64,000 nt of DNA from an uncultured Nitrososphaerota archaeon. GTDB lineage: Archaea; Thermoproteota; Nitrososphaeria; Nitrososphaerales; Gagatemarchaeaceae. Positions 1,248-10,459 of this stretch are shown here, piece after piece (within the stretch, counting starts at the first letter, position 1; every line of letters starts with the position of its first letter). The notes under the pieces were generated by a model. It was not told the DNA's origin. It saw only the letters and a list, made by a program, of their open reading frames with translations, and made no database searches. The DNA is taken from NCBI GenBank assembly GCA_963838925.1, contig CAWISW010000001.1, positions 96,001-160,000 of the forward strand. The letters are read 5' to 3'. The translations under genes were made by a program, and so were the position numbers.

Positions 1248-1664
1248 ATGTCGCAGCCAGACCCCAACGAGAAGACCCTCATCGTCGTGAAGCCCGGAGC
1301 GGTCGCCCGAGGGTTCGTGGGCGAGATTCTCGGGAGGTTCGAGAAGCGGGGCATGAAGATACTGCAGCTAAAGTCCCAGACCATGACCAAGGCCAAGGCG
1401 GAGGAGTTCTACAGCGTCCACAAGGAGCGGCCCTTCTTCGGCGAGCTCGTCGCGTCCTTCTCGGGCGGGATGACCGTCGGCGCGGTGATCCAGGGGATGG
1501 ACGCCGTCGCCACCGTCAGGAGGATGGTCGGCGCGACGAAGAGCTGGGAGGCTGCCCCCGGGACGATCCGAGCGGACCTGGCCATCGGGCTGACCGACAA
1601 CGCAATCCACGCCTCCGACTCGAAAGAGTCCTTCGAAAGAGAGAGCAAGGCCTACTTCTCCTGA
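1248..1664 (+). CDS. ndk: Nucleoside diphosphate kinase
   Basis: EKTLIVVKP, RPFFGEL, PGTIRAD, NAIHASDS motifs; ATG 1248 (GTG 1236 also possible). Confidence 0.97.
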   Translation: MSQPDPNEKTLIVVKPGAVARGFVGEILGRFEKRGMKILQLKSQTMTKAKAEEFYSVHKERPFFGELVASFSGGMTVGAVIQGMDAVATVRRMVGATKSWEAAPGTIRADLAIGLTDNAIHASDSKESFERESKAYFS

Positions 1665-1759
1665 CCCGCCAGCCGCTTTCTGCGCGATGACTTTTTTCTA
1701 ACCGCTCGCTAGAAAATAGTTGACGCGCGGCATCTTAGACGTGCGCGGGCAATTGTCCA

Positions 1760-2131
1760 ATGTTCATGGGTCAAATCTCGCGAGCCCTCGCGCTGGAGCA
1801 GGCGGGCGACTACCGGAGTGCGGTCAAATCGTTGATGAGCGTCCTCGATGACATCGAGGCGTCCTCGGAGTGGGACAGCGTCTGCGAATGGATAGCAAGC
1901 TGTTTCGAGAAGATCGGCGAGCACGCCGAGGCAGGGTTCTGGTACGAGACCGCGGGCCAGCTCACCCTCGCAGGCGACTCCTCGCCGGTCCCCCGGAAGA
2001 TATCCTCGGCGCTCTTCTTCGTCCAGAGGGCGTCGGACTGCTACTCGAGGTGTGGAACGGAGGGCGAGATGGCGACCGCCCGGACCAGGGCGATAAGCGT
2101 GGTGTTGGAGAGAGCATGTCCTCCCGCGTGA
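1760..2131 (+). CDS. Small TPR/SNAP-like alpha-helical protein
   Basis: Helical repeats with patterns ALALEQAGDYRSA and ASCFEKIGEHAEAGFWYETAG; GC3-rich codon usage like neighbouring genes. Confidence 0.55.
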   Translation: MFMGQISRALALEQAGDYRSAVKSLMSVLDDIEASSEWDSVCEWIASCFEKIGEHAEAGFWYETAGQLTLAGDSSPVPRKISSALFFVQRASDCYSRCGTEGEMATARTRAISVVLERACPPA

Positions 2132-2231
2132 TGTTCTTCCGCTCGATCGCTCTGCGGCCGAGGCCGAAGCGCCGCAAGACCGGCAACTAGTCCTCACCAG
2201 CCGGTCCCCCCCTCAGCGGGGCTCGGGCGCT

Positions 2232-2801
2232 CTAGTTCTTGGGCTCAGACCCGCTACCGAGGAAGAAGTTGCCGATCTTGGTTATCCTCTCCCTGATGGT
2301 GGTCGCGGTCGTGTCTATCTGGAAGTAGAGGTCGAGCGATTTCAGGGACTGGGGGAAGTTGGGCCCGCGTCCCACCCTCAGGAGGGGTCTCTCGGTGCAG
2401 ACGGCAAGGACGGAGTCGATGAACTTCTTCCCGTCCTCTGGCGACTTGCTAACTGAGCACCGGATGGACAGAATCTCCCCGGTGTCGACGTCCCTGGCCA
2501 TCCAGAGGACTCCCTGGGTTTCACTGTTAAGATAAGCGACGTTCTCCTCGATCGTCACCAGGCGCCTCTTCTTCTCGGGCGTCGGGAGGGCGGCCATGAC
2601 CGCCTTCTGCGCGTCGTGGACCGCGACGTGGGATATCCCACCCAGGAGCTTGGACGCATCTCGTGAAGTGTACCCTGAAGCGCACAGGACCGCTGCCATG
2701 ACCTTCTTTTCCGTGGGAATCCTGCTCCTTTTGATGACGTTCTGGTCCTTCGCCCACGCAGAGAGGAACTCGATTATGGTGGGAGGAGGGGGGCTCGTCA
2801 A
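2232..2801 (-). CDS. IS6-family transposase-derived protein, catalytic DDE residues lost (HTH plus RNase H-like fold)
   Basis: Collinear with archaeal IS6 transposases: R-I-P-TEKKVMAAVL..SGYTSRDASKLLGGISHVAV (HTH), PEKKRRLVTIEEN (normally VAIDET), LWMARDVDTGEILSI, VLAVCTERPLLRVGRGPNF (normally VDRGPWY). ORF intact. Confidence 0.75.
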   Translation of the reverse strand: MTSPPPPTIIEFLSAWAKDQNVIKRSRIPTEKKVMAAVLCASGYTSRDASKLLGGISHVAVHDAQKAVMAALPTPEKKRRLVTIEENVAYLNSETQGVLWMARDVDTGEILSIRCSVSKSPEDGKKFIDSVLAVCTERPLLRVGRGPNFPQSLKSLDLYFQIDTTATTIRERITKIGNFFLGSGSEPKN

Positions 2802-2804
2802 GAC

Positions 2805-2951
2805 CTGTTAAGATAAGGCGCTCCACACTCATTAATGAGCTTTGCGAAATTATTCTCAAAAAAGGGTCCACGAACAGCGTTAAGTTAGCGTTCGGAGGCT
2901 GTTAACTTATCAGAATTCATAACGGTTATCTAGAAATTCCTACCCTAACAG
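2805..2951. promoter_or_regulatory. Divergent promoter region with repeated CTGTTAAGATAAG-like sites and palindrome CTCATTAATGAG
   Basis: Motif copies at 2805-2817, 2877-2889, 2899-2911 and (reverse) 2939-2951; perfect 12-bp palindrome at 2828-2839. Confidence 0.6.
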
Positions 2952-2958
2952 AGACAAG

Positions 2959-4014
2959 ATGGAAGTAAGTAACGAAGGAATGGACTTCATAGAAGCCGAA
3001 AAAATCGCAGCAGTCATGCGGATGGCCAAACCTAACGTGACCGTAATTGGTCTCGGAGGAGCCGGAAGCAACATCATCTCCTGGATCAAGGAGAGAGGCA
3101 TCGCCGGCGGCAAACTCATCGCCGCCAACACAGACGCAGCACACCTGAGCATCACCAAGGCGGATCGCAGGATCCTCATTGGAGAGAAGCTCACGCACGG
3201 CCAGGGCGCCGGAGGGTACCCACAGCGCGGTGCGGCAGCAACAAAGGAGTCGATCGACGACTTCCAAAAGGAAACACAAAACAGCAACATCATCTTCCTG
3301 TGCGCGGGCCTCGGAGGAGGCACCGGAACAGGTGCGATCGAGGTCCTCTCAAAGGAACTCGCAAGGCAGGGCCGCCTAGTGATAGGGGTCGTGACTTTGC
3401 CGTTCTCTGTCGAGAGGTTCAGGTACGACAACGCGAAGAACGCTCTCAAGGTTCTCCGCCAGTACTGTGACACCGTCGTCGCAATCGACAACACCAAACT
3501 GTCCAAAGTCGCAGGCGACCTGCCGTTACAGCAGGCGCTGGGCGTTGCCAACGAGCTGGTAGGCCAGTTCGTGAAGGGCATCACCGAGACCATCACCACG
3601 GCCAGTCTCATCAACATCGACTACGCTGACCTCCGCGCCATATGCGAGCGCAAGGGTCTAGCCGCGATCGGTGTCGGAGAGGCAAAGGGCTCTGACAGGG
3701 TTGAGGTCGCGATCAGGCAGGCCATCGAAGGGCAGCTGCTCGACATCAGAGACGTTACCAAGTCGCAAGGGGTACTCGTCCACGTGACAGGCGGCTCGGA
3801 CGTGACGCTGGAGGAGGTCACAAGGGCAGGCGAACTCGTAACAAAGTCGCTACCTCCGAAGGTCAGGATCGTCTGGGGCGCACGCGTAGACCCGTCTCTG
3901 GAAGGCCGTGTAAAGTGCATGGTCATGCTCACTGGCGTGGAGAGCACTTTCCTCGCTCAGCAGCAAGAGTACAGCTTCTCGTTCGGTCCTCTGAAGATCG
4001 GTCCAAAGAGCTAA
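2959..4014 (+). CDS. ftsZ: Cell division protein FtsZ
   Basis: GLGGAGSN, AANTDAAHL, tubulin signature GLGGGTGTG, T7 loop LINIDYADL, IVWGARVD. Confidence 0.97.
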   Translation: MEVSNEGMDFIEAEKIAAVMRMAKPNVTVIGLGGAGSNIISWIKERGIAGGKLIAANTDAAHLSITKADRRILIGEKLTHGQGAGGYPQRGAAATKESIDDFQKETQNSNIIFLCAGLGGGTGTGAIEVLSKELARQGRLVIGVVTLPFSVERFRYDNAKNALKVLRQYCDTVVAIDNTKLSKVAGDLPLQQALGVANELVGQFVKGITETITTASLINIDYADLRAICERKGLAAIGVGEAKGSDRVEVAIRQAIEGQLLDIRDVTKSQGVLVHVTGGSDVTLEEVTRAGELVTKSLPPKVRIVWGARVDPSLEGRVKCMVMLTGVESTFLAQQQEYSFSFGPLKIGPKS

Positions 4015-4060
4015 AGAGCAAGGGCTGCGAGCCTTTCGCTCTCCTTTCCTTTTTATTTTT
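4015..4060 (+). terminator. Probable terminator after ftsZ
   Basis: Stem-like agagc/aagggct...agcctttcgctct followed by a pyrimidine/T-rich run ctttcctttttattttt. Confidence 0.5.
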
Positions 4061-4148
4061 CACAACCCAGCGGGAGCTGTGGCCGCGTATTCGGCAAGCC
4101 GATCCGACCGCGCAAGGCATAAGTCGGGCCTGCGTCGGCGGGAATTTC

Positions 4149-4562
4149 GTGAGGAGCAGGTCCCTCTCTGCGGCCGCGGCCCTCTCGCTGGCCATCGTCC
4201 TAGCGTCGAGCTTCGCCCAGGCGGCCTCAGCCTCTGTCTTCGTGGGGGGAACGGGCGACTGGACGCTGGTCGGCGATCCTACCGTGCAGACCTTAGGGGC
4301 GTCCCAGGCGGCTGAGCTCACCTACGAGAACCACCTGGCAACTCCCGTGTTGGGGGTGGTCATCATGGTCCTGCACAACAACATCGGCCAGACCGTGTAC
4401 TACACCACGGCGACGATCAATCTCAACTCCAGCTCCTACGGGACGGTCTTCCTCGTCGAGTATGGGGTGAATCCCGGTGTCTACAACGCGACCTTCTTCG
4501 CGTTCAGTGTCGCTGGGATTGCGATCTCCAATTGTGCGGAGACGTCCTTCCCGGCTCGGTGA
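4149..4562 (+). CDS. Small secreted Ig-like protein, homologous to the C-terminal domain of the 1135-aa S-layer-like protein
   Basis: GTG 4149 gives a signal peptide (RSRSLSAAAALSLAIVLASSFAQA); HNNIGQTVYYTTATI...GVYNATFF...GIAIS matches HNAAGQTVDISTATI...GTYSVTLF...GTAIS at the end of ORF 27228-30635. Confidence 0.7.
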   Translation: MRSRSLSAAAALSLAIVLASSFAQAASASVFVGGTGDWTLVGDPTVQTLGASQAAELTYENHLATPVLGVVIMVLHNNIGQTVYYTTATINLNSSSYGTVFLVEYGVNPGVYNATFFAFSVAGIAISNCAETSFPAR

Positions 4563-4629
4563 CGCTGAAAAAAGCGAAGCAAGGGATAATTAGTAGTGGG
4601 TTCCCCATAACCCTGAATGCTGATTTCGC

Positions 4630-6444
4630 ATGTCCCAGTCAGAACAAAAACTCCGACAACCAGTCGTAGTCGTGCTGGGGCATGTTGACAGCGGAAAAAC
4701 TTCACTTTTGGATCGGATTAGGGGGACGGGCGTCCAGGCCCGCGAGGCTGGCGGGATCACCCAGGAGATCGGCGCCAGCTTCTTCCCGATGGAGACGCTC
4801 GAGGCAATCTGCGGCCCGCTGCTCTCGAAGACCGGCGGGCAGCTGAAGATACCCGGGCTCCTCGTCATCGACACACCCGGTCACGAGATATTCTCTAACC
4901 TGAGGATGCGGGGCGGCTCCGCGGCGGACATCGCGATCCTGCTCGTCGACGTCCTGAAGGGCCTTGAGAACCAGACCATCGAGAGCATAGAGATTCTCAA
5001 GGAGAGGCACGTCCCGTTCCTAGTGGCGCTCAACAAGGTCGACATGATCAGGGGCTGGAGGAAGGACACCAACAGCGGGAAGGGGGGCATCTCCCTCGCC
5101 GCCGCCCTCAAGCTGCAGCCCCCGGAGTGGAACGACGAGCTCGAGGAGCGCCTCTACAACGTGGTCGGCGGGCTCTCGAGGGCCGGCTTCCAGGCCGAGG
5201 CGTTCTACCGCATCCAGGACTTCCGCAAGCAGGTCGCGATCATCCCAGTCTCCGCGAGGACCGGCGTCGGCATACCGGAGCTCCTCGCGGTGCTCATCGG
5301 GCTCGCCCAGCAGTTCCTGACCACCAAGCTCTCCCAGGGGTCGGCCGACGTCTCCGGCAAGACCAAGGGGATCGTCCTAGAGCTCCAGGAGGAGGTGGGG
5401 ATGGGGCAGACCGCCAACATCATCCTCACCGACGGGACCCTCCACGTGGGGGACAAGATAGTGATCGTGAAGCGGGACGGGGCGGCGCAGTCCAAGGTGA
5501 AGGCCCTCTTCATGCCCAAGCCCCTCGACGAGATGCGGGACCCTCGCGACAAGTTCACCGCGGTGAACGAGGTGTACGCGGCCGCGGGCGTGAAGCTGGT
5601 CAGCCCCGACCTCGAGGGGGTAATCCCGGGGACAGCCGTGACGACCTTCCAGGACGAGGCGGAGTTCGAGAGCCTGAAGGCAGAGCTCGAGAAGGACCTC
5701 GGCACCCTGAGGCGCAGGAGCGACAACGTCGGGGTGGTGGTGAAGGCGGGGAGCATCGGCGGCTTGGAGGCTCTCATCAAGATGCTCGAGGACCGCGCCA
5801 TCCCCGTGCGCTCGGCCGACATCGGCGACATCTCAAAGGCCGAGATAATCGAGGCGGAGGCCGTGGCTGAGCGCGACCCCTACCTCGGCGCCATCATCGG
5901 GTTCGACGTCAAGGTCCTCCCAGAGGCAAAGGAGAGCCAGGAGCGCGTCAAGATCATCGCCTCCGAGGTCATCTACGACTCGGTCGAGGGCTACGTCCAG
6001 TGGGTGGCGTCGAAGAAGGAGGAGGACGAGAGGACGGCCCTCCAGAACGTCACCATGCCCGCGAAGATAAAGGCGCTGAAGGGGAACTTCTTCAGAAGGA
6101 ACGACCCCGCGGTCTTCGGCGTCGAGGTCCTCGCAGGCAGGCTAAAGCCCAAGGTCAGGCTGATGAACCAGAAGGGCGAGGAGGTCGGGATCGTCGAGCA
6201 GATCCAGGAAAACGGGAAGAACATCCCCGAGGCCGGCAAGGGGATGCAGGTCGCGATCTCCGTGAAGGGCCCCACCCTTGGGAGGACCATCAAGGAGGAC
6301 GAGGACCTCTTCACGTTCCCCACGAGCCACGACGCGAAGATACTGAAGGGCAAGTACGCCTCCACCCTGAGCCCTGACGACCAGCAGGCGTTCGAGGAGA
6401 TAATCGCCATAAGGTCCGCGAAGGACATGCTCTACGGGTTCTAG
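4630..6444 (+). CDS. infB: Translation initiation factor aIF5B (IF-2)
   Basis: LRQPVVVVLGHVDSGKT, REAGGITQEIGA, IDTPGHE, NKVD, KPLDEMRDP; 604 aa. Confidence 0.98.
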   Translation: MSQSEQKLRQPVVVVLGHVDSGKTSLLDRIRGTGVQAREAGGITQEIGASFFPMETLEAICGPLLSKTGGQLKIPGLLVIDTPGHEIFSNLRMRGGSAADIAILLVDVLKGLENQTIESIEILKERHVPFLVALNKVDMIRGWRKDTNSGKGGISLAAALKLQPPEWNDELEERLYNVVGGLSRAGFQAEAFYRIQDFRKQVAIIPVSARTGVGIPELLAVLIGLAQQFLTTKLSQGSADVSGKTKGIVLELQEEVGMGQTANIILTDGTLHVGDKIVIVKRDGAAQSKVKALFMPKPLDEMRDPRDKFTAVNEVYAAAGVKLVSPDLEGVIPGTAVTTFQDEAEFESLKAELEKDLGTLRRRSDNVGVVVKAGSIGGLEALIKMLEDRAIPVRSADIGDISKAEIIEAEAVAERDPYLGAIIGFDVKVLPEAKESQERVKIIASEVIYDSVEGYVQWVASKKEEDERTALQNVTMPAKIKALKGNFFRRNDPAVFGVEVLAGRLKPKVRLMNQKGEEVGIVEQIQENGKNIPEAGKGMQVAISVKGPTLGRTIKEDEDLFTFPTSHDAKILKGKYASTLSPDDQQAFEEIIAIRSAKDMLYGF

Positions 6445-7264: not shown

Positions 7265-10200
7265 ATGGCCCAGCAACAGCAGTCCACTTCCACGCCGCCC
7301 CCGGAGGCGCAGCGTCTGATCCCCAAACAGCCGGAGTGCAACATCGGGACGTCGGGCCATGTAGATAGTGGCAAGTGTCTCGAGTGGGGAACCCACGTCC
7401 TCCTGGACGGGGTCCCGATGACGGGACAGCAAATCCTCGACAGAGTGAAGCTCACGGGTGCATTGATTAGCAGAATCGATGGCGGCGAAGTCTATTCGTT
7501 TGCAGACAACGAGATAGTCAGCGTCAACAATAGCTTCGAACCTGTAAAGGCGGCTTCGTCCTTCTACGTCCAACGATACGCGGGTCCGATGTATACTATC
7601 AGAGGCAAGACGGGGCGGGAGTTGAGTGTCACCCCTGAACATCCCCTGCTGATCAATAGAAAGGGGCTTGTGCAGTGGGTCAAGGCAAAAGACATCCGCG
7701 AGGGTGATTACGCCGCCTTCCTTGGAAAGGTACCGCTACACGAGGACGCTGTCATTCCTGACGCTCTTCCAGCACTGGGGGAACGATACAAGATAGTCAC
7801 GGCACAGGAGTATGATGCAATCAGGACACTGAGCTCCGAGTTCAAGGATTTCACGTCGCTCTCCACTGACCAGTTGGAATCCGTTCGAATCTTGAGACGT
7901 CTCTCGAGAAGCGAGCTAGAGAAGCGTGCGAACGTCGACGCTGCGCGTTACGCGCGTGCGGTTCGTGAGGGGAAGCCCCACCCGGCCGGAGAAAGACAGA
8001 GAATTGTCGAAGTTCTGCAAGAGTCCCTTCCCAGAGAACTCAAACCCGACGAATTCTTGGTTGAGCAGAAGCTGGTGGCTGGAAGAAGAATCCGACTGCT
8101 GAGGAGGTTCGAGTCCTTTGACGAGGACATCATCAAGTGGTTCGCTTTCGTTTGGTCTGAGGGGAACAGCAGCAACGGGTCGGTGACGGTTACCCAGACA
8201 GTCCAGGAAAGAATGCTTCAGGAGTACCTTAGGATCACAGGGGAGAAGTTTGGCCTCGAAGTTAGGTCTTATGGGGAAGGGAGGTACTCGATCTACAACA
8301 CCGCTTTTGTCGACTACATCCGCTTCAGCTTTGGCTTTAACCCAGGCAACGAATCCGTCTGCGGAATCGCAGACTGGGTGTGTGGGCTCCCCCGAGGCCT
8401 CAAAGCCATTTTCCTCAGATGGTTCCTCACGCTGGACGGGGAGTTCAACAAGAAAGGGGAAATCGCGATCAGCCAACTCAACGGAAGAAACATCGTCATA
8501 ATGAGCTACCTGCTTCACTCGTTTGGCATAGTCCCGAAGTTCGGCGTGAAGAACAGCCCGACGAAGAAAGGGATGAAGGGTTACAGTAGATTGAGGATAT
8601 CGGGCCGCAGAGACCTTCAGCTCTTTGCCGACCTAATCGGTTTCGAGGATTCAGGGATACAAGGGAAGCTCCTCCACTACCTTTCGAAGATTGAAAAGGA
8701 AAGCAAAGAGACGGATAGAAGCATCCCGATCGACCAGCGGTCCTTGAGGTTGCTTCTGAAGCGGAGCGGGATCACGCGGGAGGGGTTCGACCGCCTGGAG
8801 GTCGAGACCATAATCAAGGCGACCGCGTGGTACCACGCCTATTCTGATGCAATGAGGAGCGGGCGAATGTCTCGAACCAAGCTTCTCTTGGTCGTTGGGA
8901 GAATCGATGAGCAACTTCGCGCGCTCGAGCACTCGGCTCACTCAATGCACCATGACGGCGGTCGTCTAAGGCATCACGCGGCGCTGCTTGGGATCTCATT
9001 GCAGGCACTCTCGGCCGAGCTGGGATTCAGCCGAAGGAAGCTGGTGAGAATTCTTAGGAAAGGTTCCGATGCCGAGCTGCGAGCAATCGCGCTCTACCTT
9101 AGGGCTGAAACCCGAGGAGTTCTGCGCTATTCCACTGGCAGACTCGAGCAGCTTCGAAAGCTCGCGAGTTCATCAGTGGAGTTCGATAGAATCGTTCGCG
9201 TAAGGAAGGTCGACTACGACGGCCTTGTCTTCGACCTCACTGTCCCGGAGTACGCGAATTTCGTTGCGGGGAGCGGGGCGACGATATGCCACAACACGTC
9301 CATCGTCCAGGCAATCACAGGCGTATGGGCCAGCGCCCACAGCGAGGAGCTGAAGCGGGGAATCACGATAAAGGTCGGTTACGCCGACGCAGCCTTCTAC
9401 AAGTGCCACGTCACCCCTCCGCCGGAGGCATACTCCACCTCTCCGGTCTGCCCTGTCTGCGGGAACAAGACCGACTTCCTCAGGGCAGTCAGCTTCGTCG
9501 ACGCGCCTGGGCACGAGAGCCTCATGACGAACATGCTGGCAGGCGCCGCGCTCATGGACGGCGTGATACTGGTCATAACCGCGAACGAGCCCGTCCCCAT
9601 GCCCCAGACGAGGGAGCACCTCCTCGCGCTCCAGATGCTGGGGATGAAGAAGATGGTCGTCGTCCAGAACAAGATCGACAGGGTAGACATGGAGGGGGCG
9701 AAGAAGAACTACGAGGCGATCAAGCAGTTCCTCGCCAACACCGTGGGCGCCGACGCGCCGATAATCCCGGTCTCTGCCCAGAACAAGATAAACATCGACG
9801 CGCTGATAGAGGCCCTCGAGGAGAACATACCCACTCCGAAGCACGACCTGAGCGCCGCCTCGCGGATGCTCATCCTGAGGAGCTTCGACGTGAACAGGCC
9901 TGGGACGGACGTGAAGACCCTCGTGGGGGGCGTCCTGGGGGGCACACTCGTCAGCGGCGAAATCAGCGTGGGCGACGAGATCGAGATCTCCCCCGGCATC
10001 GCCGAGGAGAGGACCGGCAACTACACGCCCATCCTGACCAAGGTGGCGAGCCTCGGGACTGGCGCGGGGATGACCGACAAGGTCGGACCAGGTGGGCTCA
10101 TCGCGCTCGGGACGTCTCTCGACCCTCGCCTTACCAAGGGCGACGTGCTGGTGGGGAACCTGGTGGGCAAGCCCGGAACCCTCCCTCCGATAATGTCTCA

Positions 10201-10459
10201 CATCACGGTCGACCTCCAGCTCTTCGACCAGGCGGTCGGCTCATCCGCTCTCATCAAGGTGGACAAGGTGAAGGCGACAGAGACGCTCAGGCTCAACATC
10301 GGGACCGCCTCGACGCTCGGGACTGTGACCTCCGCCAGGGACACGGTGGCGGAGCTCGACCTGAAGAAGCCCGTGGTCACGGAGGCTGGAGGCCGCGTCG
10401 CGATAAGCAGAAGGATAGCCGAGAGGTGGCGCCTGATTGGCTCCGGCCTCGTCCGCTAG
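7265..10459 (+). CDS. eif2g: Translation initiation factor aIF2 gamma subunit, intein-containing (mature protein about 424 aa)
   Basis: QPECNIGTSGHVDSGK|intein|TSIVQAITGVW..HSEELKRGITIKVGYAD, VSFVDAPGHE, QNKID, RSFDVNRPG, RWRLIGSG. Confidence 0.97.
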   Translation: MAQQQQSTSTPPPEAQRLIPKQPECNIGTSGHVDSGKCLEWGTHVLLDGVPMTGQQILDRVKLTGALISRIDGGEVYSFADNEIVSVNNSFEPVKAASSFYVQRYAGPMYTIRGKTGRELSVTPEHPLLINRKGLVQWVKAKDIREGDYAAFLGKVPLHEDAVIPDALPALGERYKIVTAQEYDAIRTLSSEFKDFTSLSTDQLESVRILRRLSRSELEKRANVDAARYARAVREGKPHPAGERQRIVEVLQESLPRELKPDEFLVEQKLVAGRRIRLLRRFESFDEDIIKWFAFVWSEGNSSNGSVTVTQTVQERMLQEYLRITGEKFGLEVRSYGEGRYSIYNTAFVDYIRFSFGFNPGNESVCGIADWVCGLPRGLKAIFLRWFLTLDGEFNKKGEIAISQLNGRNIVIMSYLLHSFGIVPKFGVKNSPTKKGMKGYSRLRISGRRDLQLFADLIGFEDSGIQGKLLHYLSKIEKESKETDRSIPIDQRSLRLLLKRSGITREGFDRLEVETIIKATAWYHAYSDAMRSGRMSRTKLLLVVGRIDEQLRALEHSAHSMHHDGGRLRHHAALLGISLQALSAELGFSRRKLVRILRKGSDAELRAIALYLRAETRGVLRYSTGRLEQLRKLASSSVEFDRIVRVRKVDYDGLVFDLTVPEYANFVAGSGATICHNTSIVQAITGVWASAHSEELKRGITIKVGYADAAFYKCHVTPPPEAYSTSPVCPVCGNKTDFLRAVSFVDAPGHESLMTNMLAGAALMDGVILVITANEPVPMPQTREHLLALQMLGMKKMVVVQNKIDRVDMEGAKKNYEAIKQFLANTVGADAPIIPVSAQNKINIDALIEALEENIPTPKHDLSAASRMLILRSFDVNRPGTDVKTLVGGVLGGTLVSGEISVGDEIEISPGIAEERTGNYTPILTKVASLGTGAGMTDKVGPGGLIALGTSLDPRLTKGDVLVGNLVGKPGTLPPIMSHITVDLQLFDQAVGSSALIKVDKVKATETLRLNIGTASTLGTVTSARDTVAELDLKKPVVTEAGGRVAISRRIAERWRLIGSGLVR
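7376..9295 (+). mobile_element. Intein (640 aa) with LAGLIDADG endonuclease domain
   Basis: Starts CLEWGTH after the P-loop Lys; block B VTPEHP; LAGLIDADG-like WFAFVWSEG and FLRWFLTLDG; ends VFDLTVPEYANFVAG...CHN before Thr; codon usage less GC3-rich than the exteins. Confidence 0.95.

What the first reader, a model, noticed from the sequence alone, without database searches (positions are those of the whole stretch)
2232..4014. Candidate domesticated IS6 transposase acting as a regulator of ftsZ
Seen: an intact 189-aa ORF with host-like codon usage, divergent from ftsZ across 157 bp. It follows archaeal IS6 transposases motif by motif, but the catalytic positions appear changed (IDET to IEEN, VDRGPWY to VGRGPNF, no NxIERW third-Glu motif) while the HTH is kept. 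There is no IS end at its 3' side. Known: IS6 transposases bind their terminal inverted repeats, and the characterised archaeal ftsZ regulators are CdrS/CdrL ribbon-helix-helix proteins, which are not present here. Inference: an exapted, nuclease-dead transposase works as a transcription factor or DNA-FtsZ coupling factor for cell division. I know of no described system like this.
Basis: partly seen in the sequence, partly recalled or inferred. Interest (0 to 1): 0.88.

Follow-up and report, generated by a model that had tools for sequence, protein, structure and literature searches.

The report
Dead IS6 transposase gene beside ftsZ
A soil archaeon keeps a catalytically dead, shortened copy of a jumping-gene enzyme next to a cell-division gene, with copies of the jumping gene's own end sequence conserved between the two, so it probably now works as a DNA-binding switch.

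Summary
Window 2232-2801(-) is an intact 189-aa ORF, 157 bp from and divergent to a canonical ftsZ (2959-4014).

- **Homology:** Pfam does not see it, but profile comparison ties it to IS6/IS240 transposases (99.9%).
- **Dead enzyme:** the DDE triad reads E85/G144/T174, and the last ~45 residues are missing.
- **Host gene behaviour:** it is single-copy in its genome. It lies between a TPR-like gene and ftsZ in 10 of 10 genome loci that hold it and in 20 of 20 informative metagenome contigs. It evolves under purifying selection (dN/dS ~0.16; HTH ~0.09).
- **New here:** the intergenic DNA holds three conserved copies, plus one inside the ORF, of an 11-nt motif. That motif is the core of the terminal inverted repeats of live IS6 relatives (12/12 identity). 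It is almost confined to this locus in the genome.

Most likely the gene encodes a domesticated transposase that binds its co-opted repeat ends and regulates itself, and probably ftsZ. Binding, regulation and any division role are inferred, not shown.

A sister subfamily lies beside an M50 protease gene instead. The host also carries CdvA, SepF and two more ftsZ paralogues.

I rate it a new variant of a known kind.

The parts
2232..2801 (-). 189-aa ORF: a catalytically dead, C-terminally truncated IS6/IS240-derived protein (subfamily A)
   Evidence: The triad columns read E85 (nt 2547-2549), G144 (2370-2372) and T174 (2280-2282).
2586..2729 (-). H-HTH DNA-binding region (residues 25-72), the most constrained part of the protein
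   Evidence: The model shows helices 30-41, 46-53 and 58-71. The region aligns to the IS6 HTH. dN/dS is 0.089 here against 0.185 for the RNase H-like part.
2307..2570 (-). RNase H-like fold remnant (residues 78-165) without the DDE acids
   Evidence: Strands 81-90, 96-104 and 110-116, helix 121-134, strand 140-142. The best Foldseek hits are Mu transposase, integrases, Metnase and Mos1, all weak.
2526..2536 (+). Intragenic copy of the repeat core GTTAAGATAAG, carried by rare codons (TAT CTT AAC)
   Evidence: The 12-nt form (with the following C) is exact in 6 of 10 orthologous loci. CTT is 23 of 234 Leu codons and TAT 7 of 48 Tyr codons in six local genes.
2807..2817 (+). Site 1: GTTAAGATAAG, 5-16 nt upstream of the ORF start. 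TGTTAAGATAAG is 12/12 identical to the terminal repeat of a live IS6 relative (L015).
   Evidence: (mean pairwise identity 0.83)
2829..2842 (.). Conserved AT-rich box (TCATTAATGAGCTT; on the minus strand AAGCTTATAT-like in relatives). It is read as the BRE/TATA of the ORF promoter, which is an inference.
   Evidence: identity 0.70
2878..2893 (+). Site 2: CGTTAAGTTAGCGTTC. In four relatives it is the palindrome CGTTAACTTAACG.
   Evidence: identity 0.82
2901..2911 (+). Site 3: GTTAACTTATC, 22 bp from site 2
   Evidence: identity 0.81
2912..2922 (+). AGAATTCATAA, the most conserved intergenic element, 36-47 nt upstream of the ftsZ ATG. It is read as part of the ftsZ promoter, which is an inference.
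   Evidence: identity 0.90
2959..4014 (+). Canonical ftsZ (paralogue 1 of 3 in this genome)
1760..2131 (+). TPR-like ORF, always on the 3' side of the dead-transposase gene
   Evidence: Only weak TPR hits below cut-off. Present in 10 of 10 genome loci and in 22 of 22 informative metagenome loci.
1665..4629 (.). Block lying between ndk and aIF5B (TPR-like ORF, dead transposase, ftsZ, small ORF of no known family). In relatives without canonical ftsZ, ndk and aIF5B are adjacent.
   Evidence: G007, G010, G015; the small ORF has no Pfam family

Best explanation
The ORF encodes a domesticated IS6/IS26-family transposase. It has kept the N-terminal H-HTH that once recognised the element's terminal inverted repeats, and most of the RNase H-like fold. 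It has lost the DDE acids and the C-terminal ~45 residues, so it cannot cut or join DNA.

Copies of the repeat core (GTTAA-S-WTAAG/C) were co-opted with it. Three sit in the 157-bp region shared with ftsZ and one inside the ORF.

Proposed mechanism:
- The protein, probably as a dimer or higher oligomer, binds these sites.
- Site 1 lies between the TATA-like box and the ORF start, so binding there would repress its own promoter. IS1 InsA does this at its left repeat.
- Sites 2 and 3 are 22 bp apart, and site 3 abuts the most conserved element upstream of ftsZ. Binding there would set transcription of this ftsZ paralogue.

Shown: homology, dead triad, truncation, single copy, fixed synteny, purifying selection, motif conservation, motif identity to live IS6 ends, and near-restriction of the motif to this locus.

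Inferred: the binding itself, the promoter assignments, the sign of regulation, and any effect on cell division.
For: Homology:
- phmmer gives 84 hits at E<=1e-3.
- Of 10 distant hits scanned, 8 carry PF13610 above its cut-off.
- hhalign of the family profile against a profile of intact relatives gives 99.92%, E 8.5e-35.

Dead enzyme:
- None of 57 close-family rows has D-D-E. The second position is G in 53. The third is never E.
- The tail after the third column is 6-18 residues, against 41-64 in 16 intact proteins.

Host gene behaviour:
- One copy in the 1.84-Mb genome and one orthologue in each of 9 same-genus genomes.
- The order ndk, TPR-like ORF, gene, ftsZ holds in all 10 genome loci.
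- ftsZ lies upstream in 20 of 20 informative metagenome loci, and the TPR-like ORF downstream in 22 of 22.
- NG86 dN/dS median is 0.156 over 28 pairs. It is 0.089 in the HTH.

Co-opted ends:
- Live relatives carry perfect terminal repeats GATGATGTTAAGATAAG (L015) and GATACCGTTAAGAT (L020). L020 is in the same genus and has an intact 224-aa transposase.
- The intergenic region shares a 12-nt exact match with these. A match that long occurred in 2 of 5000 shuffles.
- The sites are 0.81-0.83 identical across 10 loci, against 0.35-0.50 for the spacers.
- GTTAASWTA occurs 7 times in the genome, 4 of them here.
- The sister subfamily also has the motif upstream of its start.

Precedent: InsA shares the transposase DNA-binding domain, represses the promoter that overlaps IRL and competes for both ends (passages read in PMC12428005).
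Against: - No binding or expression experiment exists.
- Pfam and NCBIfam give no hit.
- All sites point towards ftsZ. That is the opposite of a left repeat left in place by the ORF's own ancestor.
- The sister subfamily lies beside an M50 protease gene. G024 has it without any canonical ftsZ found, though that assembly is 83% complete. The family is therefore not tied to ftsZ as such.
- The two other ftsZ paralogues have no such motif upstream.
- One locus (G022) has the gene split between two frames. Another (G012) has frame breaks in two neighbouring genes (ndk, TPR), and its copy of this gene aligned only from residue 9, with no start codon at the aligned first position.
- dS is about 1.2, near saturation, so dN/dS is rough.
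- The compared genomes are kin, not independent.
- The TATA/BRE assignments are by eye.
Confidence: 0.55

Rival explanations
1. Anti-transposon guard. The dead transposase is kept because it binds the ends of incoming or resident IS6 elements of this clade and blocks their transposition, as a dominant-negative inhibitor. The sites near ftsZ serve only its own autoregulation, and ftsZ is a bystander.
For: - The motif equals the repeat core of live IS6 relatives in the same order and genus.
- The own genome has no live copy of that clade.
- The sister subfamily sits away from ftsZ in G024.
- InsA acts this way (passages read in PMC12428005).
Against: - Position next to ftsZ is fixed in every locus where the flank could be read: 10 of 10 genome loci and 20 of 20 informative metagenome loci.
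- Three spaced sites reach to the conserved element just upstream of ftsZ. That is more than autoregulation needs.
- G018 carries both the gene and an intact IS6 copy with perfect ends.
Confidence: 0.2
2. The conserved motifs are promoter or operator elements for some other factor, and the protein has a different role that uses its HTH or RNase H-like remnant elsewhere.
For: No binding data exist. The sites are AT-rich in a 61% G+C genome, as promoters are.
Against: - The motif is identical to IS6 terminal repeats.
- It travels with the gene family in two unrelated genomic contexts.
- It is almost absent from the rest of the genome.
Confidence: 0.12
3. DNA-FtsZ coupling factor. The protein binds the site array and also touches FtsZ protein, in the manner of SlmA or Noc (comparison from my own recall), placing or blocking FtsZ assembly relative to the chromosome.
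For: Only the fixed adjacency to ftsZ. The RNase H-like remnant is retained and moderately constrained, so it could serve as a protein-binding surface.
Against: - There are only four sites, all at one locus. Known occlusion factors use many dispersed sites (recalled).
- No other evidence bears on contact with FtsZ.
Confidence: 0.05
4. A functionless relic of the insertion sequence that helped bring the ftsZ block into the ndk-aIF5B gap. It is not yet decayed.
For: - The block is absent between ndk and aIF5B in three ftsZ-less relatives.
- One orthologue is split by a frameshift.
Against: - dN/dS is 0.16 at dS about 1.2.
- The frame is open in 8 of 10 genome loci; G022 is split and G012 lacks a resolved start. 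The 27 metagenome loci were not checked for stops.
- The HTH is more constrained than the rest.
- The family forms one cluster with at least two conserved contexts.
Confidence: 0.03

Closest known systems
IS6/IS26-family transposases (Pfam PF13610 DDE_Tnp_IS240)
   Same: - N-terminal H-HTH followed by an RNase H-like core.
- Profile-profile match of 99.9%.
- The repeat core contains the family's cTGTt motif. Passages read in PMC7986276 describe GG tips and cTGTt in IS6 ends.
   Different: - No DDE triad, and no C-terminal region with the K/R residue.
- 189 aa against 213-254 aa.
- Single copy, not flanked by two inverted repeats, fixed in one place.
- Below every Pfam threshold.
IS-encoded truncated regulators that share the transposase DNA-binding domain (IS1 InsA; Tn5 Inh and IS911 OrfA are recalled)
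   Same: A protein with the transposase's DNA-binding domain but no catalysis. It binds the element's ends, one of which overlaps the promoter, and represses it (InsA: passages read in PMC12428005).
   Different: Those are made inside a live element, beside a full transposase, and serve the element. This one is a stand-alone host gene with no live partner at the locus, and its sites face a cellular gene.
Eukaryotic domesticated DDE transposases that still bind their old repeats or act as transcription factors (SETMAR/Metnase, FHY3/FAR1, CENP-B; recalled from memory)
   Same: The DNA-binding domain is kept and conserved, mobility is lost, and the gene is single-copy and orthologous under purifying selection. 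Metnase's transposase domain is among the fold hits.
   Different: - This is an archaeal host and an IS6 family.
- The whole regulon appears to be one locus.
- Catalytic acids are lost at the second and third positions in nearly all members.
CdrS/CdrL, the described archaeal ftsZ regulators
   Same: A small DNA-binding protein gene directly linked to an ftsZ paralogue. Titles and abstracts of PMC7439475 and PMC8406309 were seen in the search listing.
   Different: Those are ribbon-helix-helix proteins of Euryarchaeota. This is an HTH plus RNase H-like protein of transposase origin in Nitrososphaeria. The two are not homologous.

Membership tests
IS6/IS26 transposase (PF13610) | Scores above the Pfam gathering threshold for DDE_Tnp_IS240 | tested here: not met
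   No Pfam family at E<=1 and none in NCBIfam.
IS6/IS26 transposase (PF13610) | Detectable homology to bona fide family members | tested here: met
   phmmer hits carry PF13610 in 8 of 10 scanned. hhalign gives 99.92%, E 8.5e-35.
IS6/IS26 transposase (PF13610) | DDE catalytic triad followed by a K/R-bearing C-terminal region | tested here: not met
   The triad reads E85/G144/T174. No D-D-E in any of 57 close relatives. The tail is 15 residues against 41-64.
IS6/IS26 transposase (PF13610) | N-terminal H-HTH | tested here: met
   It aligns to the HTH of intact members and is modelled as helices at pLDDT above 90.
Insertion sequence (mobile element) | A pair of terminal inverted repeats flanking the gene, several copies, and variable location | tested here: not met
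   Repeat-like cores lie only on the 5' side and inside the ORF, none on the 3' side. One copy per genome and a fixed place.
Domesticated (exapted) transposase gene | Single-copy orthologue in conserved synteny across species | tested here: met
   All 10 genome loci that hold the gene (own genome plus 9 relatives) and 20 of 20 informative metagenome loci. An eleventh genome (G006) has the orthologous ftsZ at a contig end, so its flank is unreadable.
Domesticated (exapted) transposase gene | Purifying selection on the coding sequence | tested here: met
   Median dN/dS is 0.156 over 28 pairs. dS is near saturation.
Domesticated (exapted) transposase gene | A demonstrated host function | not testable with these tools
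   This needs binding and expression experiments.
CdrS/CdrL ribbon-helix-helix ftsZ regulators | Ribbon-helix-helix fold | tested here: not met
   The model is all-helical H-HTH followed by an RNase H-like fold. No RHH family appears in Pfam.

The most novel reading that the evidence does not exclude
The dead transposase and its co-opted repeat ends form a chromosome-anchored module that contacts FtsZ protein as well as setting ftsZ transcription. This would give a Cdv-carrying thaumarchaeal lineage a transposon-derived way to couple a newly gained, triplicated FtsZ system to the DNA.
Probability: 0.05. Interest if true: 0.9.

Novelty: new variant of a known kind. Interest (0 to 1): 0.68.

Why it matters
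Clear cases of a DDE transposase turned into a host regulator together with its own repeat ends are well known in eukaryotes. My three literature searches found none described for archaea or for the IS6 family.

This case is unusually clean:
- The live relatives, their ends, the dead protein and the co-opted sites can all be compared side by side.
- The whole target set appears to be one 400-bp locus, so a gel-shift and a reporter assay would settle it.

It also bears on archaeal cell biology. This Nitrososphaeria sub-clade carries three canonical ftsZ paralogues plus SepF alongside CdvA. One paralogue has acquired a private, transposon-derived neighbour in every locus examined where the flank could be read. 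If that neighbour regulates it, this would be a second, unrelated kind of ftsZ regulator in archaea after CdrS/CdrL.

Tried and rejected
- **Complex prediction:** Complex prediction of FtsZ (alignment A6) with the ORF product (A4) gave no answer: score 0.00 against a mark of 0.32, controls not run. It says nothing either way.
- **RNA evidence:** four metatranscriptome runs kept as contigs cover ftsZ or close relatives densely. On the ORF there is only one short contig (2319-2435, run X10) and one bin in X14. Contigs cannot rank genes, and DNA carry-over is possible. I draw no conclusion on ORF expression.
- **Fold search:** hits are DDE transposases and integrases, but weak (best E 7e-4, TM about 0.3). 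This is consistent with the reading and not decisive.
- **RNA element in the intergenic DNA:** no Rfam match in 1600-4700 at E<=1. The fold z-score is -0.57. Rejected.
- **Other IS6-type genes of the own genome as partners:** four PF13610-positive genes exist. They are a different, longer zinc-finger clade with an intact triad, share no detectable similarity with the ORF, and have no motif nearby. Rejected as partners.
- **Repeat ends at the borders of the 1665-4629 block:** none found. Whether an IS6 event delivered the block cannot be told.
- **Segmental duplication from the M50-ftsZ-2 neighbourhood:** considered but not resolved. In G201 the order is M50, subfamily-B gene, two ORFs, ftsZ. 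In this genome it is M50, a cyclophilin-like ORF (named from reading its translation, no family search), then ftsZ-2.
- **Tree:** I kept only rows of 170 aa or more and every third close-family row, giving 48 rows. One row (P0127) that I had labelled dead is in fact a fragment with D-D-E. It falls outside the dead cluster.
- **Invalid rows:**, rows L120, L124 and L125 have no upstream DNA. Their motif counts are invalid and were not used.
Full report
**What is there.** Window 2232-2801(-) is an open frame of 189 aa starting at TTG. The only in-frame start before the conserved N-terminus is that TTG, because a TAA lies two codons upstream. It faces away from a 351-aa ftsZ at 2959-4014(+), across 157 bp. 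The ftsZ is canonical. It has the Tubulin and FtsZ_C domains, scores above the TIGR00065 equivalog cut-off, and keeps the GGGTGTG signature invariant in 22 aligned rows. On the other side of the ORF lie a TPR-like ORF (weak hits only) and ndk.

**Is it IS6-derived?** Pfam and NCBIfam see nothing at E<=1. A word-indexed search found 114 relatives, mostly 60-86% identical and about 184 aa long. Some are named 'transposase-like' by one source. An exhaustive phmmer search found 84 proteins at E<=1e-3. I scanned 10 of the more distant ones. Eight, of 213-226 aa, carry PF13610 DDE_Tnp_IS240 above its cut-off. One has a sub-threshold hit and one has none. A profile of 14 close family members aligned to a profile of 17 intact relatives gives 99.92% probability and E 8.5e-35 over 161 columns. 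The homology is real but remote.

**Is it dead?** In the intact set, D82, D141 and E169 (numbered on the L020 transposase) are invariant. They align to E85, G144 and T174 of the window protein. Across 57 close-family rows:
- The first position is E in 40, D in 15 and Q in 2.
- The second is G in 53, E in 3 and D in 1.
- The third is S in 42, T in 11, G in 3 and A in 1, and never E.
- No row has D-D-E.

The proteins end 6-18 residues after the third column, against 41-64 residues in 16 full-length intact proteins. An AlphaFold2 model built on 89 sequences (pLDDT 84, pTM 0.76) shows four N-terminal helices. These are followed by three strands, a helix and more strands, and then a disordered tail. 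Foldseek's best PDB hits are Mu transposase, retroviral integrases, Metnase, Mos1 and TnsB. All are weak: best E 7e-4, TM about 0.3.

**Is it a host gene?**
- The own assembly (1.84 Mb, 3 contigs, 87% complete) holds one copy. The only other match has E 0.17.
- Among 40 relatives, 9 of 22 same-genus genomes have one orthologue each. In other families of the order, the matches are multiple, weak and often broken by stops, as expected of live or decaying insertion sequences.
- All 10 genome loci show the order ndk, TPR-like ORF, gene (reverse strand), ftsZ.
- The orthologous ftsZ (94-98% identical) was found in 10 of the 22 same-genus relatives. Nine of those have the gene. In the tenth (G006) the contig ends at the ftsZ start.
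- A metagenome scan gave 27 further loci. All 20 with at least 260 nt upstream have ftsZ there, and all 22 with at least 250 nt downstream have the TPR-like ORF. This includes members only 58-64% identical. Some of these contigs may duplicate each other or the genomes.
- Nei-Gojobori dN/dS over 8 loci (28 pairs) has a median of 0.156 for the gene. The values are 0.084 for ftsZ, 0.138 for the TPR-like ORF and 0.102 for ndk. dS for the gene is about 1.2, so the ratio is rough.
- By region, the ratio is 0.089 in the H-HTH, 0.185 in the RNase H-like part and 0.19 in the tail.
- GC3 is 0.82, within the local range.
- Against a fully clean picture, the G022 copy is split between two frames. The G012 locus has frame breaks in ndk and TPR, and its copy of the gene aligned only from residue 9 with no start codon at the aligned first position.

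**The new observation: co-opted repeat ends.** Aligning the intergenic region of the 10 loci shows three islands of conservation with one shared motif:
- GTTAAGATAAG at 2807-2817.
- CGTTAAGTTAGCGTTC at 2878-2893. In four relatives this is the palindrome CGTTAACTTAACG.
- GTTAACTTATC at 2901-2911.

Mean pairwise identity is 0.81-0.83 in these islands and 0.35-0.50 in the spacers. An AT-rich box (2829-2842) scores 0.70 and AGAATTCATAA (2912-2922) scores 0.90. Each of the 10 regions holds 1-5 matches to GTTA[AG][GC][AT]TA, against about 0.02 in shuffles.

In the whole genome GTTAASWTA occurs 7 times, 4 of them at this locus. The fourth copy, at 2526-2536, lies inside the ORF. It is identical to site 1 over 13 nt. 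In its 12-nt form it is exact in 6 of 10 orthologues. It is carried by the rare codons TAT and CTT.

Live relatives explain the motif:
- L020 is a 767-bp element in a same-genus genome. It has an intact 224-aa transposase flanked by the perfect repeat GATACCGTTAAGAT.
- L015 is a 717-bp element with the perfect 17-nt repeat GATGATGTTAAGATAAG.
- L013 has GGGATTGTCAAGATAA.
- Other copies show the same core, GT(T/C)A(A/C)GATAAG.

Site 1 with its flank (TGTTAAGATAAG) matches the L015 repeat 12 of 12. A match that long to any of the three repeats arose in 2 of 5000 shuffles of the intergenic region. The repeats fit the family description of GG tips and an internal cTGTt (passages read in PMC7986276). 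All four window sites point towards ftsZ. That is the reverse of a left repeat left in place by the ORF's own ancestor, so they are not simply an undisturbed relic.

**The wider family.** About 40% identical homologues occur in two other genera of the same family: G024 (L076 1774-2319) and G201 (L092 8334-8888). Both are truncated and lack the second acid. Both lie directly downstream of a zf-AN1/M50 protease gene. Both have the motif upstream of their start. G024 has CCGTTAAGATAA plus a reversed GTAACTTAACG next to the ATG. G201 has CTGTTAAGTTAC.
- G024 has no canonical ftsZ in an 83%-complete assembly.
- G201 has one 1.2 kb away, convergent.
- In the window's genome the M50 orthologue lies 1.3 kb from ftsZ paralogue 2, with a cyclophilin-like ORF between them (named from reading its translation, no family search) and no transposase-like gene.
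- In a tree of 48 rows, the dead proteins (30 rows, all subfamilies) lie on one side of a branch of length 0.54 with SH-aLRT 99. This is consistent with one domestication, although the tree is unrooted and was built with a quick search.

The motif therefore goes with the gene family, and the ftsZ linkage is a property of subfamily A.

**Genomic and biological setting.**
- Related records are titled Nitrososphaeria or Nitrososphaerales archaeon MAGs.
- In G007, G010 and G015, which have no canonical ftsZ, L24e, ndk, aIF5B, S6e and aIF2-gamma are contiguous. Window 1665-4629 therefore lies as a block between ndk and aIF5B relative to them. I found no repeat core at its borders.
- The genome has three canonical ftsZ paralogues, 100, 76 and 65% identical to the window copy.
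- Canonical ftsZ was found in 8 of 201 sampled genomes of the class, counting this one.
- Three relatives without canonical ftsZ that were searched with the tubulin family model (G007, G001, G005) each have only a distant tubulin-family gene. Two more (G013, G002) gave only a weak, 25%-identical match to the FtsZ query.
- The genome also has SepF and CdvA.
- A passage read in PMC11188069 states that Thaumarchaea encode FtsZ and SepF along with ESCRT but use ESCRT for division.

What these FtsZ proteins do here is therefore open, and 'regulator of cell division' is two inferences away from the data. The upstream regions of the other paralogues carry different conserved elements and no repeat core.

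**Mechanism proposed.** The most economical reading is that the HTH still recognises the repeat core. Site 1 lies between the AT-rich box and the ORF start, which is a repressor position. Sites 2 and 3 keep a 21-22 bp spacing in 6 of the 10 loci, and site 3 abuts the best-conserved element 36-47 nt before the ftsZ ATG. The ancestral behaviour has a documented precedent. In IS1 the promoter overlaps the left repeat, and InsA shares the transposase DNA-binding domain. InsA represses that promoter and competes for both ends (passages read in PMC12428005).

I give 0.55 to self-regulation together with ftsZ regulation. I give 0.20 to an anti-transposon guard with ftsZ as a bystander. I give 0.12 to the motifs belonging to another factor. 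I give 0.05 to a physical FtsZ link and 0.03 to a functionless relic.

**Novelty.** Three full-text searches and passages of two IS6 or thaumarchaeal mobile-element papers (PMC7986276, PMC6563490) turned up no description of a domesticated IS6 transposase or of such a gene beside ftsZ. Supplements were not seen. Domesticated DDE transposases that bind their old repeats are a known kind in eukaryotes (recalled). I therefore file this as a new variant of a known kind.

Noticed in passing
L053:1501-2961 (G009:C3, a same-genus genome): A fourth ftsZ-1-like copy, 90% and 84% identical to the window FtsZ in its two halves. It carries an in-frame insertion of about 135 aa between the GTPase and C-terminal domains. 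The insertion scores as an ArsR-type winged HTH (HTH_20 32.1 bits, cut-off 27). That makes it an FtsZ with a built-in DNA-binding domain. Its upstream DNA is unrelated to the window's intergenic region.
   Followed up: partly
window 2959-4014; G000:C2:557274-558320; G000:C2:138062-139057: The genome has three canonical ftsZ paralogues plus SepF (C3:762937-763152) and CdvA (C3:136448-136792). Canonical ftsZ was found in only 8 of 201 sampled Nitrososphaeria genomes and in about half of the 'genus'.
   Followed up: partly
window 1665-4629: The TPR-like ORF, dead transposase, ftsZ and a small ORF of no known family lie between ndk and aIF5B. In ftsZ-less relatives those two genes are adjacent, within the conserved L24e-ndk-aIF5B-S6e-aIF2gamma row.
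   Followed up: partly
window 7265-10459: aIF2-gamma is 1064 aa long. Residues about 38-654 are missing from the G010 and G015 orthologues but present in G007. This looks like a large intein that is polymorphic among relatives. I did not check it further.
   Followed up: no
G000:C2:411351-412274, C2:509162-510310, C3:179326-180537, C3:395295-396488: Four diverged (31-66% identical) proteins of 302-398 aa. Each has cysteine-rich N-terminal motifs (read by eye as zinc-finger-like), an HTH, and an IS240-type DDE domain with an intact triad. Each is single. They are unrelated at BLAST level to the ORF studied.
   Followed up: partly
window 2959-4014 and orthologues: Synonymous divergence of ftsZ is 0.39. 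That is a third to a half of its neighbours' values (0.67-1.23). Its GC3 (0.72) is lower than most neighbours (0.82-0.94). This suggests strong synonymous constraint, gene conversion or recent exchange.
   Followed up: no
L092 8992-9819 / L076 2436-3281 / G000:C2:559638-560432: A zf-AN1 plus M50 protease gene is the fixed neighbour of the sister dead-transposase subfamily. In this genome it lies 1.3 kb from ftsZ paralogue 2.
   Followed up: partly
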